Assembly (NCBI RefSeq): GCF_009914755.1
Contig: NC_060934.1
Direction: 5' to 3' (one strand)
Source of the DNA: the human T2T-CHM13v2.0 reference genome, Homo sapiens
DNA length: 64,000 nucleotides
Below the pieces are notes generated by a model. It was given only the letters and a program-made list of their open reading frames with translations. It did no database searches and was not told where the DNA came from. The translations under genes were made by a program, and so were the position numbers. Positions within the stretch are counted from its first letter, which is position 1, and every line of letters starts with the position of its first letter. Positions 2,811 through 51,929 of this stretch are shown one piece after another.

Positions 2811-2875
2811 ATGATTTCCTGTTGGAAACTTTCAGGGGCTGAACCAATATTTCTGGTCGTCTCAAAGCCAATCTC
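2811..2875 (-). CDS. MPP7: MPP7 coding exon (probably exon 11): (R)RLALRRPEILVQPLKVSNRKS(S), start of HOOK region; 65 bp, phase 2-1
   Basis: Translated by hand. Acceptor ttctttctcccAG (ct 2876-77), donor GTAAGT (2805-2810); phase fits the upstream exon. Confidence 0.96.
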
Positions 2876-3353
2876 CTGGGAGAAAGAAGGTCAACATACC
2901 TATCAATTTTCAGCACAGGTCCGAGGTGAATACAATATCAAAATATTTAGTCTTAAGAAAAAACTTAAAGGTTAGAGAAAAAAATGAATGTAATGCAATA
3001 GATTCAAATTAAGAAACAAATCGCCCACTTTCAAATTTTTGTAAATTATCTTCCCTCCCTCCAAAACCACTGGTCTTTTTTTTTTCCACCTTTCATATCA
3101 ACATGGTTTCAAGATATTAATGTGCTATTTTCCATTTGCTTCATAACAAAAATCTAATATGACCCAGTACTGTCATATTATTTTTGGTCATTCATCATAC
3201 TTAGTTAGACAAAACAGAAATCCAAACCCACAGGATAAAAAATTCTAAGGCAAGGTTTTATAGCATATTTTATCACATCAATGCCAGAATGATATTTTGC
3301 AGAGAACAAAAGGTCAGCTGGAGAAAAGCCATTATTATGTACCAGCAGCTCAC

Positions 3354-3550
3354 CTTTCCTGGAAATGCTTTGAGGGGATCAAGCCTGCCCTGGGGTTGGC
3401 ATCAGCTTCGTGTTTCGCTTGCCACCAAGTTGCATCATCTTGGCTCATAATCTGAAGAATATCTCCCTTTTTGAAAGAAAGCCCAGCTTCCTTACATGGA
3501 ATTGCCTTATCCTCATTAGGATTATAGTCAAAGAGGGCTTTGATAAACAT
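3354..3550 (-). CDS. MPP7: MPP7 coding exon (probably exon 10): [19 protein letters not shown]...[24 protein letters not shown](R), SH3 domain; 197 bp, phase 0-2
   Basis: Overlaps ORF 3350..3568. MAGUK SH3 motifs ALFDY, WWQA and GLIPS. Acceptor ttcttccAG, donor GTGAG. Confidence 0.98.
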
Positions 3551-3753
3551 CTGGAAGAAAAGTTTCATTAAAGATGAATAAAGATAAAAAATAAATGTGA
3601 AATGGCCTATATTCTCCTAACTCCGACTCCAAACATAGTAATTTTAAAACTGGAATATTGAAAGAAATGTGTTGTGACAAAGTGGATATGTGTTGGATGG
3701 AAAAACATGACTTCCCTCCCACGCACGAAGAAATGTTTTTAAGCAATAATTAC

Positions 3754-3828: not shown

Positions 3829-4186
3829 CTGGTAACAGATAAAACAAGGAGTTATAAGAAAACCAGACCCAAGGAAGAATAAGGTAAAATAGGTAGAAAG
3901 TGAAATGCATCTGAAAATTTACAAGCTTGGGGCTTCTACTCTTAGATAGACTAAACGGAGGAAACTATTTTTGTAGAAATTCCTGTAATGTGAGAAAGAA
4001 AGCTCTGAAGTTTGTAGAATAAGTTAAAAAACATTAACTCCTAAATCCACTTTTACTTCCTGTGTACTTTTAAGCTGTCAAGTAAATACATTCCCATCCA
4101 AGTTTCTTCGAAATAGAAACACACAAAATATGCACAACACCTTAAATAAACACAGTATTCAATGACTAGAACAGATAATGTATAAA

Positions 4187-4442
4187 GGTCTGGGTGCAGT
4201 GGCTCGTGTCTGTAATTCCAGTGTTTTGGGAGGCAAGGTGGCAGGATCACCCAAGCCCAGGAGTTCAAGACCAGCAATATAGCAAAACCCCTGTCTCTAC
4301 AAAAAAAATTTTAAAAATTAGCCAAGCGTGGTGATGAAGCTAAGGCCTCTTGAGCCCAGGAGTTCAAGGCTGCGGTGAGCTGTGATCGCACCACTGCACT
4401 CCAGCCTAGGTGACAGAGCAAGAAGCTTTTTTTTTTTTTTTT
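4187..4442 (+). mobile_element. Old Alu (AluJ-like) with internal deletion, ending in a T16 run
   Basis: Alu left and right arm motifs; degenerate flanks ataatgtataaa / ataatgtacaa. Confidence 0.85.
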
Positions 4443-5469: not shown

Positions 5470-6480
5470 TGCCTCACAATAATCTAGCATATGGATGAAT
5501 GATTATTTGATCAACGCAACTTTCTTGGTAGTTTCCGAATATTTTTGAAAAATTTTGTTTATACACATTTACCAAATTATTGCTTGAGGATTAATTTCCA
5601 ACTAAAGGGTATGCACATTTAAAATTTTGATAGTTTCAGATCTCAAAAAGTTCTACTAATAATTTATCCCATCCCCAAATCATATAAATATACCTATTTT
5701 CCTATACCCTGACCAACTCTAGGCATTATCAAGCTTTCCAATCTCATATCCTGAAAATGCTTTGAGGGGATCAAGCCTGGCCTGGGCTTGGCATCACCTT
5801 CGTGTCTCCAGACATCTATGTTTTCTTTTGTAAAGTATTTGTCCATATGCACTGCTGATTTTTCTGTAAATGTTTTTCTTATTGATTTTTATCATCTCTA
5901 TATATTTTGAAACATTAGCCTTTTATTATATATACTGAAAATATTTTTCATACAATCTCATTTGTCTTTGATGTTTCTTTATGGCACCTTTTTTCTATAA
6001 AGAAAGTTTTGAATTCTAGTAGACACATCTGTTATTTTTCTATTTGACTTTCATATCAAGGTTAAAAAGTCTTTTTCTACCTTATAATTATAGAAATTGT
6101 ATATTACCTTTTATTGTGCAATTTTTGTTTTTTTTGCACTTATTTAATTTGTTGGGAATTTATTTTTATGTATTGTGTAAAACAAGGATTGACCTTATTT
6201 TTTCTGCGCCATTAACCTGATACCATCTATGAAATGTTCCACTGTTTTCCCACTGATTTAAAATGCCACCTTAACCATATACTAAATTTTCATATATACA
6301 GAGATCTGTTTTTGAGACACACTCAAACCTCTTCTAGTTGGTATAGGTTTCCAGTATGTTTTCACATATAAAAGAGAGTTTCCCTTCCTTTTATCTTACA
6401 AATGAACTTTAGAATTAATATTTCCAAGGCATAAAATAATTTTATTCAAGTGTCAGATTTCAAAAGACATCTAAATTAGT
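5470..6480 (-). mobile_element. Ancient L1M 3'-region fragment, host of the MPP7-derived insertion
   Basis: T-rich antisense L1M phrases such as 'gtccatatgcactgctgattttt' and 'ttttcccactgatttaaaatgccacc'. Boundaries approximate. Confidence 0.7.
5738..5805 (-). pseudogene. Intronic fragment copy of MPP7 coding sequence (3' end of the SH3 exon plus the first 8 nt of the next exon)
   Basis: 5749-5805 vs 3357-3413 matches 53/57 ungapped. 5738-5745 (ccaatctc) equals 2868-2875 in spliced register. Total 62/68 against the spliced mRNA. Confidence 0.9.
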
Positions 6481-6551: not shown

Positions 6552-6932
<381 letters not shown>

Positions 6933-6939
6933 TAAAACT

Positions 6940-7589: not shown

Positions 7590-7943
<354 letters not shown>

Positions 7944-8120
7944 CACAAGTTTTAAGATAGCTTTGGATGCTTGTGTACAAGAAGACCATAGAGTAATGTT
8001 TATCTATCATTTATTTAAATAGGCTCTCACATTTCAACACAGAGAAAAATATCTTATTACTTGTTCTGCTGTATTAGATCCAAAGATGGTTATCCTCTTA
8101 GTTATCTACTGGAAATGCTA

Positions 8121-16709: not shown

Positions 16710-17700
16710 TTAAATCAAACTTTTGAATTGACTATAACATATATACAAAAAGTACAAATCATAAGTGTATAGTATAAATTTCAAAAATGAATATGCCCAA
16801 ATAAACACCCCGAAAACAAGAAATACAACATTAACCAAACTCCAGTGGCCCCCACTTATGCTCATTCCTAGTCATCATGCCCTCCATACCCCCCAAAGTG
16901 GTGATCTTTCCCTTTATTTGAAAATTATATAATTAGAATTACAAGTGAGTATTCATTTTTCCCTAATATTAAGTTAGTGAAATTCACCCATGCTGTTACT
17001 TATGGTAGAAGGAATTCATTTTTCATTGCTATATAGTTTTACAACATATAAATATGTTGCAATTTCTTTACCCATTATGCCTTTGAGGGGCATCTGGGTT
17101 GTTTTCCGTTCTTGGCTAGTACAAATAATGCTGCCATAAATGTTTCATATCTTTTGATGCATATATATATGATGTTATTTAAGTATATTTAAGAGTAGAA
17201 TGTCTGGGTCATAGATATATAGTAAGCCCATTCAAAATTAGTAGCGTTTTTCAATTATACTTCTACTAAAAATGTGAGTTCTAGCTTTCTAACATGATCC
17301 CAAACATTTTACATTATTAGTCTAAATTTGGCCATTCCAAGTGTATAGCGGTATCTCCTGTGGTTGAAATGTTCATTTTTCTTAAAATGAATGAGAACGA
17401 AACCCATTTGTGTTTATTGGGCATGTGTGTCTCTTGGTGAGATGCCTCCTCAAGATATTTGCATGGTTTTCTATTGCATCTGTCTTTTTCTTATTAATTT
17501 GTAAGAACTATTTATAGTATGCTGGACCCAGTCTTTATCAGTTACATGTGCTAGAAATACATTCTCCCTTTTGGTAACTTGCCCTTTCACTCTCCTTCTT
17601 GGTTATTTTTGCTCAATAAAGGATTCTAATTTTAATGAGCTCAATAAATGTTTTTTTCCTTTGTGGTTCATGCTTTTTGTATCCAACAAGAGTTTTAATG
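16710..17700 (-). mobile_element. Ancient L1M 3' fragment
   Basis: Antisense L1M 3' phrases (aataatgctgccataaat, aattcatttttcattgct). Confidence 0.7.
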
Positions 17701-20560: not shown

Positions 20561-22091
20561 CATATCTTGCACATAGTAAAACAGAGATAGCTGAATAAAA
20601 TGTTTTTAAATGAAGCAATTATGATAATTGACAGGCAATATTAAGAACATCAGCTAAATATTTTTTCTACTTAGCTTTGTTCCATGTCTGCATTCCAAAA
20701 TAATTTCATAGGCATTAAGTTTGTAATTTTTAATAACTTTGTTTTACAAATATTGTTGGATAGCAACATTTTTAATTTTGGACAACTAAAATTTTGCATT
20801 CCATTATCCTGTTTTAACTGAGGTGATTTTATTCTTTAATATACAGACTTGCCTTTAAAAAGGCAATACTTAAATGGAAATTGTGTTTCCATATGCCAGA
20901 GCCACCAATCACAACTGATGGGTTTACCTGTTGCTCAGAAGAATCTGCAGGAAATTGAACACTAGGCCTTGTAACTCATCAGACTCACAAGCACTCACTG
21001 CACTGGAACCCCTGGAGTCAACTTTATGTTCTAAGTATCTGTCAGGTTCACAGAATTAAGTGTCTAGCTTATAAGGATGAGCAACATTGATTTATCCCTC
21101 CAGAAGGAGCTTAACTTTTTCCTTCAGCTTGCTTTAATGAAGCTTCATTCATCTTGCATGCTCAGGCAGTGAGTAATTTCTCTTAAGTGAATGTTTGGAA
21201 GCTAAAAATTACAACAAATCTTCTTATTTTATTGCCTTTTAAAAAATCTACCAAATTTTCCATGACTGCCTAAATTATAATGCCATATTCTAGAGATGAT
21301 GTCACTTCACTGTTTTATCAAAAGTGAGCCCCCGGAATGATGACTCATACAGTTTAATTTGCCTTTAATGTGGCAATTTGATGGTTAGAAGTGGTTTTGA
21401 TTTATTAATGACTATCTCTGCTTCCCCTAGAAACAAAGTCTCTATATAGAACAATATCCCTCCATCAATGCCCCTAAATGCCACCAACATTATTGATTTT
21501 GCCTATTTCATCACTGCAGGAAGTATTCACATTCAATTAATCTAGTTAGGCCTTTGGCTACTTACTTTTACATTTTCAGACATCTATTGTTTCTTTTATA
21601 CTGCATTTATTTTCCTGAACTGGATTTTGTAGACATTATTGACTAATAAGAATAATCTATTTTTCAATATGGCAATTGACTGATCAATTCATTCTGGGTA
21701 TAATCTTTCAATTTTTGACAGTTCTCCAGTGACACTATTGTTACAGAATGACAAGTCATTTCCTAACTATCAAAGACTTGAGGGCAACAGGTTATACAAG
21801 AAAAGTGTTGGCATTCTTCTGAACACAGCAAGAGATTCCTAAAGAGTAAAATGAACAAAATCACAATCTTATACTATTATGAATTAAAGACTATGAAAGA
21901 AAAGTTTGAATGTCATATAAATGTACAGAATTATCTTATATGTAGAGACAAAGAAGGCTATAATGGAATAAAAATTCCACCAAACATTTAATAATTTACA
22001 TTGAATTCCGTTTACTGGGAATCCCAATGTTGCAATCACAGTGCTATGTGCTAGAAACAAAGATAAGAAGACCATCCTGTGTATCATGAAG

Positions 22092-50748: not shown

Positions 50749-51011
50749 TACTTGGCTGATAAAAAATATTCTTGTAAAAGTTTGCTGGTATATATATATG
50801 GAAATGGTTTCCTCAGATAAATTCTCATGAGAAGAATTGCTGGGTCACAGGATATAAATATTTTTACGTTAACATCAAATGTTTTCTAAAATGGTGTTAT
50901 CTATTTGCACCCCACCAGAATAACATAAAAGTTGTTCCACATACTCACCAATACTTGAGATTTACAGATCTCTTATATTTTGCCAATCTAGAGGACCTAA
51001 GTGAATAGCTA

Positions 51012-51352
<341 letters not shown>

Positions 51353-51571
51353 GATTATATTTTCTATATCTACTGGCCCCTACATGTTTCTGATGTTTTC
51401 TACCCGTTTTCTCTTAAATTGTTTTTTTCACTCTTTTGTAGATGTGCTTTCTATTTTCAGGAAGCTAAACCTTTGTCAATTATATGTATTACAATTATCT
51501 TCTCTCAAATTACGGCTAGTTTTTTCACTTATTTATGGGACACCTTGATGAACTGAAGTTCTTAGCTTTAA

Positions 51572-51929
<358 letters not shown>

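What the first reader, a model, noticed from the sequence alone, without database searches (positions are those of the whole stretch)
5738..5805. Fossil of a splice-junction-spanning MPP7 mRNA fragment written back into MPP7's own intron (candidate in-cis RNA-templated break repair)
Seen: 5749-5805 is an ungapped 53/57 copy of the SH3 exon's 3' end (3357-3413), in the same orientation, 2.4 kb away. Extending leftwards without gaps, the next 3 nt (ata) match the last exon bases (ctt) at 1/3. The following 8 nt (ccaatctc, 5738-5745) match the NEXT exon (2868-2875) 8/8, but match the genomic intron (cagctcac) only 4/8. On the sense strand the copy reads CAGGATATGAGATTGG and the spliced mRNA reads CAGGAAAG|GAGATTGG. 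The insert has no poly-A and no TSD. It appears to replace about 60-80 bp of an antisense L1M; compare the intact analogous L1M segments at about 17330-17430 and 50940-51060. Inference: 'ccaatct' is also the expected host L1 sequence at that point. A broken plus-strand 3' end ending in ccaatct is complementary to the MPP7 transcript. It could have annealed to the downstream exon and been extended across the already spliced junction, which is the polarity needed for RNA-templated repair using the locus's own transcript. The roughly 9% divergence implies an old germline event. Caveats: two mismatches sit right at the junction, and a gapped alignment to genomic DNA (ctca..tcctg) is a weaker alternative.
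Basis: partly seen in the sequence, partly recalled or inferred. Interest (0 to 1): 0.85.

Follow-up and report, generated by a model that had tools for sequence, protein, structure and literature searches.

The report
Exon patch inside an MPP7 intron
A 60-base copy of the end of an MPP7 coding exon replaces part of an ancient L1 repeat in a nearby intron, and the repeat bases beside it happen to match the next exon in exact register, which hints, without proving it, that a broken chromosome end was once extended on the gene's own spliced RNA.

Summary
Window 5749-5805 matches exon 3357-3413 at 53/57, and the match extends to 55/60 through 5808. The only two copies in the T2T genome are the exon and this patch. 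There is no poly-A and no target-site duplication. The patch replaces about 85-90 nt of an old L1 and is far younger than that L1.

The 11 bases left of the patch (5738-5748, ccaatctc+ata) are host L1, not copied mRNA. An old L1M family has the consensus TTTGCCAATCTGATAGG (82 genome hits, 0 in the control). Our flank runs collinearly into that motif and matches it 10/11. So "ata" is L1 and not a mutated exon "ctt", and no mRNA-specific base is demonstrably copied.

What remains is that 8/8 host bases match the downstream exon's end in exact spliced register, against 4/8 for the intron. This 8-mer occurs about 3-5 times per 100,000 positions.

My best reading, at about 0.5, is that the L1 3' end annealed to spliced MPP7 RNA and was extended about 60 nt, then end-joined. 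The main rival, at about 0.4, is a DNA-templated or captured patch with a chance 8-mer. Primate alignments and a genome-wide enrichment test are needed to decide.

The parts
5749..5808 (-). Exon-derived patch: a copy of the 3' part of the MPP7 SH3-coding exon in gene orientation, starting 3 nt inside the exon end
   Evidence: 55/60 identical to 3357-3416; 53/57 over 5749-5805. Reads [18 protein letters not shown] against [18 protein letters not shown] in the exon.
5738..5748 (-). Host L1 end (ccaatctc+ata), the proposed primer. It is 8/8 identical in spliced register to the end of the downstream exon, followed by 1/3.
   Evidence: Matches the L1M family motif GCCAATCTGATA at 10/11 (82 hits at <=2 mismatches of 27, control 0). 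Collinear with L055. 8/8 to 2868-2875 and 4/8 to the intron at 3346-3353.
3357..3416 (-). Donor segment in the exon 3354-3550 (intact)
2868..2875 (-). First 8 nt (in mRNA sense) of the downstream exon 2811-2875. This is the site the host L1 end would pair with on spliced RNA.
   Evidence: exon bounds from the supplied annotation; AG|GT and AG acceptor read
5578..5737 (-). Left flank: old L1 (antisense on the + strand), running into the CTTT(G)CCAATCT motif
   Evidence: Alignments to L1 loci; 41/58 identity to an L1 profile consensus
5809..6046 (-). Right flank: the same old L1 resumes about 85-90 profile positions further on. There is 1 nt (c, 5808) of overlap with the patch.
   Evidence: nhmmer E=2.1e-4, window 5814-5945 to profile 380-525; 152/228 identity; motif at profile 280-286

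Best explanation
This is a fossil of one double-strand-break repair event in the primate germline.

Proposed sequence of events:
1. A break occurred in an old L1 inside an MPP7 intron.
2. The left end's 3' tail (+ strand, the strand complementary to MPP7 RNA) ended in ...ccaatct(c/g)ata.
3. Its ccaatctc block paired with the first 8 nt of the downstream exon on an already spliced MPP7 transcript. This placed the tail's last three bases opposite the last three bases of the SH3 exon (one pair, two mismatches).
4. A polymerase with reverse-transcriptase activity that tolerates mismatched primer ends extended it directly for about 60 nt into the SH3 exon.
5. The new strand was then end-joined to the right break end with 1 nt of overlap, with loss of about 85-90 nt of L1.

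Shown by tool results: the patch and its limits, its uniqueness, the host origin of the 11-mer, the in-register 8/8 homology, the L1 loss, and the age gap between patch and L1.

Inferred only: that RNA and not DNA was the template, which enzyme acted, and that the break was germline and spontaneous.
For: 1. The in-register homology is 8/8 between host bases 5738-5745 and the downstream exon end, against 4/8 to the adjacent intron. CCAATCTC occurs 6 times in 128 kb of both strands, the two sites in question included. The chance at a fixed register is therefore about 3-5e-5.
2. Those bases are host, so the homology existed before the event and could have acted as a primer. The L1M family consensus is TTTGCCAATCTGATAGG. 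L055 is collinear with 5578-5759. An in-window L1 copy near 50,990 also reads GCCAATCT.
3. The L1 family motif and the spliced RNA agree in register at 13/22 positions (ccaatct, t, aaatg). Unspliced DNA gives 9/22. This is my count.
4. The polarity fits. The patch is in gene orientation and lies to the right of the + strand end.
5. A DNA-primed copy from the same end would carry the same terminal mismatches, but with only 4/8 upstream pairing.
6. There are no L1-endonuclease hallmarks and no other donor in the genome.
7. There is precedent in print:
   - Human cells use their own spliced transcripts to repair intronic breaks, with Pol zeta as the reverse transcriptase; 113 whole-intron deletions were found among 73,030 tumour deletions (PMC12065846, sections 11-12 read).
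   - Germline class-2 templated insertions lack a target-site duplication and poly-A, and their templates include spliced cDNAs (PMC5110952, parts 1-2 read).
   - L1 RNPs extend mismatched primer ends directly when matches within the last 10 bases compensate (PMC3649969, passages).
Against: 1. No base that is specific to the spliced RNA is demonstrably copied. The copied part is exon-only, so RNA and DNA templates predict the same sequence.
2. The whole case is a single 8-nt coincidence, found by a reader who was looking for exactly this.
3. Extension from a primer with 2 of its last 3 bases unpaired is inefficient. In one search, extension was undetectable beyond 2 terminal mismatches in the gel assay.
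4. Base 5745 is c where the L1 family has g. At the time of the event the perfect block may have been only 7 nt.
5. Local DNA-templated insertions at deletion breakpoints are, from my recollection of the CNV-breakpoint literature (not read here), commoner than any RNA-templated event.
6. MPP7 expression in the germline was not examined.
7. No other primate genome could be consulted.
Confidence: 0.5

Rival explanations
1. The patch has a DNA origin. One route is a replication or repair template switch (FoSTeS/MMBIR or synthesis-dependent end joining). The other is end-joining capture of a short DNA fragment. Either way, 60 nt of the exon 2.4 kb away were copied into a break in the L1. The 8/8 match between the host L1 and the downstream exon is then pure coincidence, helped by an L1 family motif that happens to resemble that exon end.
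For: The donor is local, intact and in direct orientation, as expected for template switching. All of 5738-5748 is explained by host L1 at 10/11, so nothing in the sequence requires RNA. A target deletion with 0-1 nt junction overlap is ordinary end joining. Such events are, by my recollection, much commoner than RNA-templated ones.
Against: The 8-mer coincidence in exact register has a chance of about 3-5e-5, or about 1e-4 to 1e-3 if neighbouring registers and weaker matches would also have been accepted. On top of that, the copy starts only 3 nt from an exon boundary, which is 4 of 197 possible positions within the exon. The left junction has no microhomology to the DNA donor: the terminal base is mismatched and upstream pairing is 4/8. 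The right junction has 1 nt, which is poor for MMBIR or Pol-theta priming. From recollection, 60 nt copied from 2.4 kb away is atypical for Pol-theta templated insertions.
Confidence: 0.4
2. This is the literal first-reader version. A 71-nt cDNA that really spans the exon-exon junction (ccaatctc|ctt|tcctg...) was written in, with or without priming from ccaatct. The bases 'ctt' later mutated to 'ata'.
For: 64/71 identity to the spliced sequence, against 60/71 to unspliced DNA. 8/8 on the far side of the junction.
Against: It needs two transversions within 3 nt in a patch that is otherwise about 8% diverged. Both changes must also land by chance on the bases of the L1 family consensus (GATA). 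If ccaatctc came with the insert, its 7/7 match to the L1 motif, at the collinear place in the L1, would be a second coincidence.
Confidence: 0.05
3. The patch arose together with the L1, by template switching of the L1 reverse transcriptase onto MPP7 RNA during the L1's own insertion. Alternatively, it is the remnant of a processed MPP7 retrocopy that was later mostly deleted.
For: The patch sits inside an L1. Chimeric retrocopies formed by reverse-transcriptase template switching are known (recalled, not read here).
Against: There is a clear age gap. The patch is 55/60 identical to its donor, while the L1 flanks are 193/286 identical to an L1 profile (Fisher p=6.4e-5; the profile is biased towards young copies, so the L1 divergence is somewhat overstated). 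There is no poly-A, no target-site duplication, and no further exon sequence to the left of 5738. No MPP7 retrocopy exists anywhere in the genome.
Confidence: 0.03

Closest known systems
Class-2 templated-sequence insertions (Onozawa & Aplan; PMC5110952, read)
   Same: A short patch copied from an intact donor. No target-site duplication and no poly-A. A target microdeletion and 0-1 nt junction overlap. Germline transmission. RNA templates, including spliced cDNAs, are documented for the class.
   Different: In those cases the donor is by definition distant, often on another chromosome, and patches of 73-414 bp were recovered experimentally. Here the donor is the same gene 2.4 kb away, the patch is 60 nt, and an 8-nt in-register homology to the spliced transcript suggests priming from the break end rather than capture of a free cDNA.
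RNA-templated double-strand-break repair with own transcript (Jalan et al. 2025, PMC12065846; yeast work by Keskin et al. 2014 recalled only)
   Same: A break in an intron of a transcribed gene. The gene's own, already spliced transcript is the template. A polymerase acts as a reverse transcriptase that extends imperfect ends.
   Different: The known scar is a precise whole-intron deletion with homology on both sides. Here no intron is lost. Pairing is ectopic (L1 to a downstream exon), imperfect and one-sided. The second end is simply end-joined, and exon sequence is added to an intron.
Endonuclease-independent L1/Alu insertions at breaks (Morrish et al. 2002, as summarised in PMC5110952)
   Same: A 3' DNA end at a lesion primes reverse transcription. 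No target-site duplication, often no poly-A, and target deletions occur.
   Different: In those cases the inserted sequence is L1 or Alu RNA. Here it is a cellular mRNA segment. The enzyme cannot be identified from the sequence.
Microhomology-mediated template switching (FoSTeS/MMBIR) insertions at deletion breakpoints (recalled, no paper read here)
   Same: A local, direct-orientation, tens-of-nt templated insertion combined with a deletion.
   Different: Expected junction microhomology to the DNA donor is 2-5 nt. Here it is 0 nt on the left and 1 nt on the right, while the host end instead matches the spliced RNA at 8/8.
Processed pseudogene / class-1 insertion by L1 endonuclease
   Same: The source would be mRNA.
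   Different: There is no poly-A, no target-site duplication and no 3' part of the mRNA. The target shows a deletion, not a duplication.

Membership tests
Class-2 templated-sequence insertion (RNA-derived DSB patch) | Inserted sequence copied from a donor that stays intact | tested here: met
   Exon and patch are both present and are the only two genome hits.
Class-2 templated-sequence insertion (RNA-derived DSB patch) | No target-site duplication, no poly-A; end-joining junctions with a target microdeletion | tested here: met
   Flanks read. About 85-90 nt of L1 are missing. Right junction overlap is 1 nt.
Class-2 templated-sequence insertion (RNA-derived DSB patch) | Donor in a distant genomic region | tested here: not met
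   The donor is 2392 nt away in the same gene.
Class-2 templated-sequence insertion (RNA-derived DSB patch) | RNA intermediate (for example, an exon-exon junction inside the insert) | tested here: inconclusive
   The junction-side bases 5738-5748 are host L1 at 10/11. Only the in-register 8/8 homology speaks for RNA.
RNA-templated DSB repair by own transcript (RT-DSBR) | The break end is complementary to the gene's own transcript and is extended on it | tested here: inconclusive
   The polarity is right, with 8/8 plus 1/3 pairing to the spliced RNA. The template molecule cannot be read from the product.
RNA-templated DSB repair by own transcript (RT-DSBR) | Scar is a precise whole-intron deletion | tested here: not met
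   Introns 2876-3353 and 3551-3753 are present (annotation).
RNA-templated DSB repair by own transcript (RT-DSBR) | Dependence on Pol zeta (REV3L) | not testable with these tools
   This needs cell experiments.
L1-endonuclease retrocopy (processed pseudogene / class 1) | Target-site duplication, poly-A tail, TTTT/A target | tested here: not met
   None of these is present at 5730-5830.
FoSTeS/MMBIR templated insertion | Local DNA donor | tested here: met
   2.4 kb away, direct orientation.
FoSTeS/MMBIR templated insertion | Microhomology of about 2-5 nt to the DNA donor at the switch points (feature as recalled) | tested here: not met
   Left junction: terminal a vs t, with upstream pairing 4/8. 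Right junction: 1 nt.

The most novel reading that the evidence does not exclude
This is a germline fossil showing that a broken DNA end in an intron can anneal ectopically to its own gene's spliced transcript. The pairing is an imperfect 8-9/11 homology. The end is then extended by reverse transcription directly from a mismatched terminus, and the product is end-joined. This would be a one-ended, microhomology-primed form of RNA-templated break repair that writes exon sequence into introns. If true, transcript-templated repair has acted in the primate germline and leaves scars other than intron loss.
Probability: 0.5. Interest if true: 0.7.

Novelty: new variant of a known kind. Interest (0 to 1): 0.5.

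Why it matters
RNA-templated break repair in human cells has so far been shown with reporters and as rare whole-intron deletions in tumours. The authors of PMC12065846 state that its role in evolution "remains to be determined". A germline patch whose host end pairs in register with a spliced junction would be a different and searchable kind of scar. It suggests a concrete genome-wide test: look for short exon-derived patches near exon ends and ask whether the flanking host bases match the neighbouring exon more often than the neighbouring intron. If the present case is only coincidence, it is an ordinary templated insertion with no functional consequence.

Tried and rejected
1. Genome-wide DNA searches with the two flanks, to find sister L1 copies. 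These found only the locus itself and one weak hit. The tool skips very common words, so this says nothing about how rare the flanks are.
2. In-window blastn of the flanks. The strict run found nothing. The lax run gave only 52-59% alignments.
3. A four-way MAFFT alignment with the in-window L1-like copies was too diverged to read the junction.
4. An apparent 11/11 match 'cagacatctat' between the right flank and window ~21,577 looked like a subfamily marker. The genome count was 27 against 7 in the control and the contexts are unrelated, so I dropped it as chance.
5. An nhmmer profile built from 30 well-preserved L1 copies found the right flank (E=2.1e-4) but not the left flank.
6. Ranking 60 L1 loci by flank similarity did not single out a subfamily. 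Well-preserved young copies score best regardless.
7. The idea that the host L1 runs on to 'tgaaaatg' (5752-5759), with an 'aaatg' microhomology junction, was rejected. 'tcctg' at 5749-5753 is 5/5 exon and at most 2/5 L1.
8. A gapped alignment to unspliced DNA (ctca..t.tcctg) needs a 2-nt gap plus a mismatch for only 4 matched intron bases, so it was rejected as weaker.
Only the match table was used.
11. No primate orthologue, repeat library (RepeatMasker/Dfam) or expression data was available.
12. Literature search for junction-containing templated insertions in the germline (1 paper, irrelevant). I found no report of such a patch inside its own gene in the searches. This does not show that none exists.

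Full report
**1. The observation**

The + strand at 5749-5805 is an ungapped 53/57 copy of 3357-3413, which is the 3' end (in mRNA sense) of the MPP7 exon 3354-3550. The copy is in the same orientation, 2392 nt away (blastn 92.98% over 57 nt, E=2.9e-18). The match continues to 5808, giving 55/60.

- To the left, 'ata' (5746-5748) matches the last exon bases 'ctt' at 1/3.
- CCAATCTC (5738-5745) equals the last 8 + strand bases of the downstream exon (2868-2875) at 8/8.
- The same 8 bases match the adjacent intron (3346-3353) at only 4/8.
- Over 5738-5808, identity is 64/71 to the spliced sequence and 60/71 to unspliced DNA.
- Further left there is no similarity to either donor.
- The splice sites flanking the two exons read as canonical.
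- The copy translates to [18 protein letters not shown], the exon to [18 protein letters not shown].
- Neither side has an A or T run attributable to a poly-A tail, and there is no flanking direct repeat.

**2. Uniqueness**

In the T2T genome that holds the window, the 86-mer 5730-5815 hits only itself and the exon. The whole 197-nt exon hits only itself and the patch. No processed MPP7 pseudogene or closer donor is therefore visible. The caveat is that the tool scores only its best candidates.

Among the 9 exon queries run against the window, this is the only significant extra-exonic match. All other hits have E>=0.013 and are 11-17 nt long.

**3. The host is an old L1, and the patch is much younger**

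A 30-nt L1 motif has 16,697 genome matches at <=1 mismatch and 0 in the reversed control. A profile built from 30 such copies finds the right flank: window 5814-5945 aligns to profile 380-525 with E=2.1e-4. The left flank aligns to individual L1 copies.

The motif CCATTCT lies at profile 280-286, and the L1 resumes at about profile 376-380. So about 85-90 nt of L1 are missing and 60 nt of exon sequence stand in their place.

The flanks are 41/58 and 152/228 identical to the profile consensus, while the patch is 55/60 identical to its donor (Fisher p=6.4e-5). The profile comes from well-preserved copies, so the L1 divergence is somewhat overstated. Even so, an origin of the patch together with the L1 is excluded.

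From general knowledge of primate neutral rates, with the exon side nearly static, 5/60 differences suggest an event some tens of millions of years old. The confidence interval is very wide.

**4. The 11 bases left of the patch are host L1**

Most L1 copies read CCATTCT at this site. By my count of the rows printed, 19 of 30 loci read CCATTCT and 0 of 30 read CCAATCT. Genome-wide, only 41 copies combine CCAATCT with the nearby anchor, and none of those 41 is followed by C.

An old L1M family, however, has the consensus TTTGCCAATCTGATAGGTGA(A/G)AAATGG. It gives 82 genome matches at <=2 mismatches of 27 (0 exact, 14 with one mismatch, 68 with two) and 0 in the control. That distribution is the signature of an old, large family.

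A member of this family, L055, aligns collinearly with our left flank from 5578 to 5759. The alignment runs through CTTT(G)CCAATCT(G>C)ATA. An in-window L1 copy near 50,990 also reads TTTTGCCAATCT.

So 5738-5748 matches the host family at 10/11. The 'ata' is L1 sequence, not a doubly mutated exon 'ctt'.

By contrast, 'tcctg' at 5749-5753 is 5/5 exon and at most 2/5 L1. The left junction therefore lies between 5748 and 5749, which is 3 nt inside the exon.

The consequence is that no nucleotide specific to the spliced mRNA has demonstrably been copied. The title reading, "a junction-spanning mRNA fragment written back", is not supported as such.

**5. What still speaks for RNA**

The host's own end is identical, in exact ungapped register, to the downstream exon's end (8/8). 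It is followed by one pair and two mismatches opposite the last three exon bases.

CCAATCTC occurs 6 times in the window on both strands, against 2.4 expected from shuffles, and the count includes the two sites in question. The chance of finding it at one fixed place is therefore about 3-5e-5. If neighbouring registers or slightly weaker matches would also have been accepted, it is perhaps 1e-4 to 1e-3.

In addition, the L1 family motif and the spliced sequence agree in register at 13 of 22 positions (ccaatct, t, aaatg). Unspliced DNA agrees at 9 of 22 (my count).

For any mechanism in which the left end primes synthesis, the DNA donor offers the same mismatched terminus but only 4/8 upstream pairing. 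The spliced RNA offers 8/8.

The polarity is the only one possible for RNA. MPP7 RNA is complementary to the + strand, whose 3' end lies on the left of a break, and the patch extends rightwards from it towards the 5' end of the mRNA.

**6. Mechanism proposed (inference)**

1. A break occurred in the L1.
2. The + strand 3' tail ...ccaatct(c/g)ata annealed to a pre-existing spliced MPP7 transcript at the start of exon 2875-2811.
3. The imperfect terminus was extended directly for about 60 nt across what is, on the RNA, the exon-exon junction.
4. The product was joined to the right end through 1 nt (c at 5808).

Precedents in papers read here:
- Own spliced transcripts template the repair of intronic breaks in human cells, with Pol zeta as the reverse transcriptase. 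113 whole-intron deletions were found among 73,030 tumour deletions (PMC12065846, sections 11 and 12).
- Germline class-2 templated-sequence insertions lack a target-site duplication and poly-A, show microdeletion and microhomology, and are attributed to RNA, including spliced cDNAs (PMC5110952, parts 1-2).
- L1 RNPs extend primers with terminal mismatches directly if matches within the last 10 bases compensate. Extension became undetectable in the gel assay with more than two terminal mismatches (PMC3649969, passages).

Which enzyme acted cannot be read from the sequence.

**7. Weighing the readings**

The rival is a DNA-templated switch or a captured fragment, with the 8-mer match a coincidence. 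It needs nothing unusual mechanistically except poor junction microhomology (0 and 1 nt). Such events are, to my recollection, far commoner than RNA-templated ones.

The coincidence it requires is small (1e-4 or below), but it is a single one, found by a reader looking for it. The prior for ectopic, one-sided transcript priming in the germline is unknown.

My estimates:
- About 0.5 for transcript priming.
- About 0.4 for a DNA or captured patch with a chance 8-mer.
- About 0.05 for a literally junction-spanning cDNA that later mutated. This needs two transversions that also land on the L1 consensus bases.
- The small remainder covers co-insertion with the L1 or a decayed retrocopy, both contradicted by the age gap and by the absence of further mRNA sequence.

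**8. Comparison with known kinds, and novelty**

The patch behaves like a class-2 templated insertion, but its donor is not distant. It resembles RT-DSBR in using the gene's own spliced transcript, but it lacks the defining whole-intron deletion and the two-sided homology. It is not an endonuclease-mediated retrocopy. It fits MMBIR poorly at the junctions.

If the RNA reading is right, it is a new variant of a known kind: one-ended, microhomology-primed, and it writes exon sequence into an intron of the same gene. I found no report of such a case in the three literature searches made. Supplements were not consulted.

**9. What would settle it**

Primate alignments would fix the pre-insertion host sequence and the ancestral junction bases. 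RNA and DNA templates predict the same product here, so only two things can settle the template question:
- A genome-wide enrichment test of neighbouring-exon homology at such patches.
- A reporter experiment.

Both are described under the next steps.

Noticed in passing
window 5745, 5754: Mosaic pattern at the left end. In register, 5745 'c' agrees with the exon side (both the mRNA and the intron have c) and not with the L1 family (g). 5754 'a' agrees with the L1 family (a) and not with the exon (g). With 'aaatg' (5755-5759) shared by the L1 family motif and the exon, this could be two ordinary substitutions or patchy correction of a homeologous heteroduplex. It remains unexplained.
   Followed up: partly
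window 5780, 5787, 5798: Three of the five differences between patch and exon are C<->G transversions, normally the rarest class. All three change the encoded residue (A>G, N>K, A>P), so they probably lie on the patch lineage. They may reflect error-prone synthesis at the event rather than later decay. The sample is too small to test.
   Followed up: no
window 5801-5802: The CpG in 'ttcgtgt' is retained in the patch despite its apparent age.
   Followed up: no
window 50940-51058 and 51373-51600: Another old L1 copy of the GCCAATCT type, split by an Alu at 51059-51372. It also lacks part of the segment downstream of the motif.
   Followed up: partly
window 6612-6934 and 7616-7949: Two Alu elements in direct orientation 1 kb apart (81% over 190 nt), with further Alu-like inverted partners at 4186-4423.
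   Followed up: no
window 21488-21762: A stretch that aligns weakly (55%) with the locus across the patch region and shares an 11/11 'cagacatctat'. The genome count shows this motif is not a family marker, so the match is probably chance.
   Followed up: yes
genome-wide (G000): L1 copies fall into distinct classes at the site after CCATTCT: AACT/GACT/GGCT types in well-preserved copies, AATAGG in 112 copies, and an older GCCAATCTGATAGG family. These short diagnostic words could serve to subtype decayed L1 3' fragments when no repeat library is at hand.
   Followed up: partly
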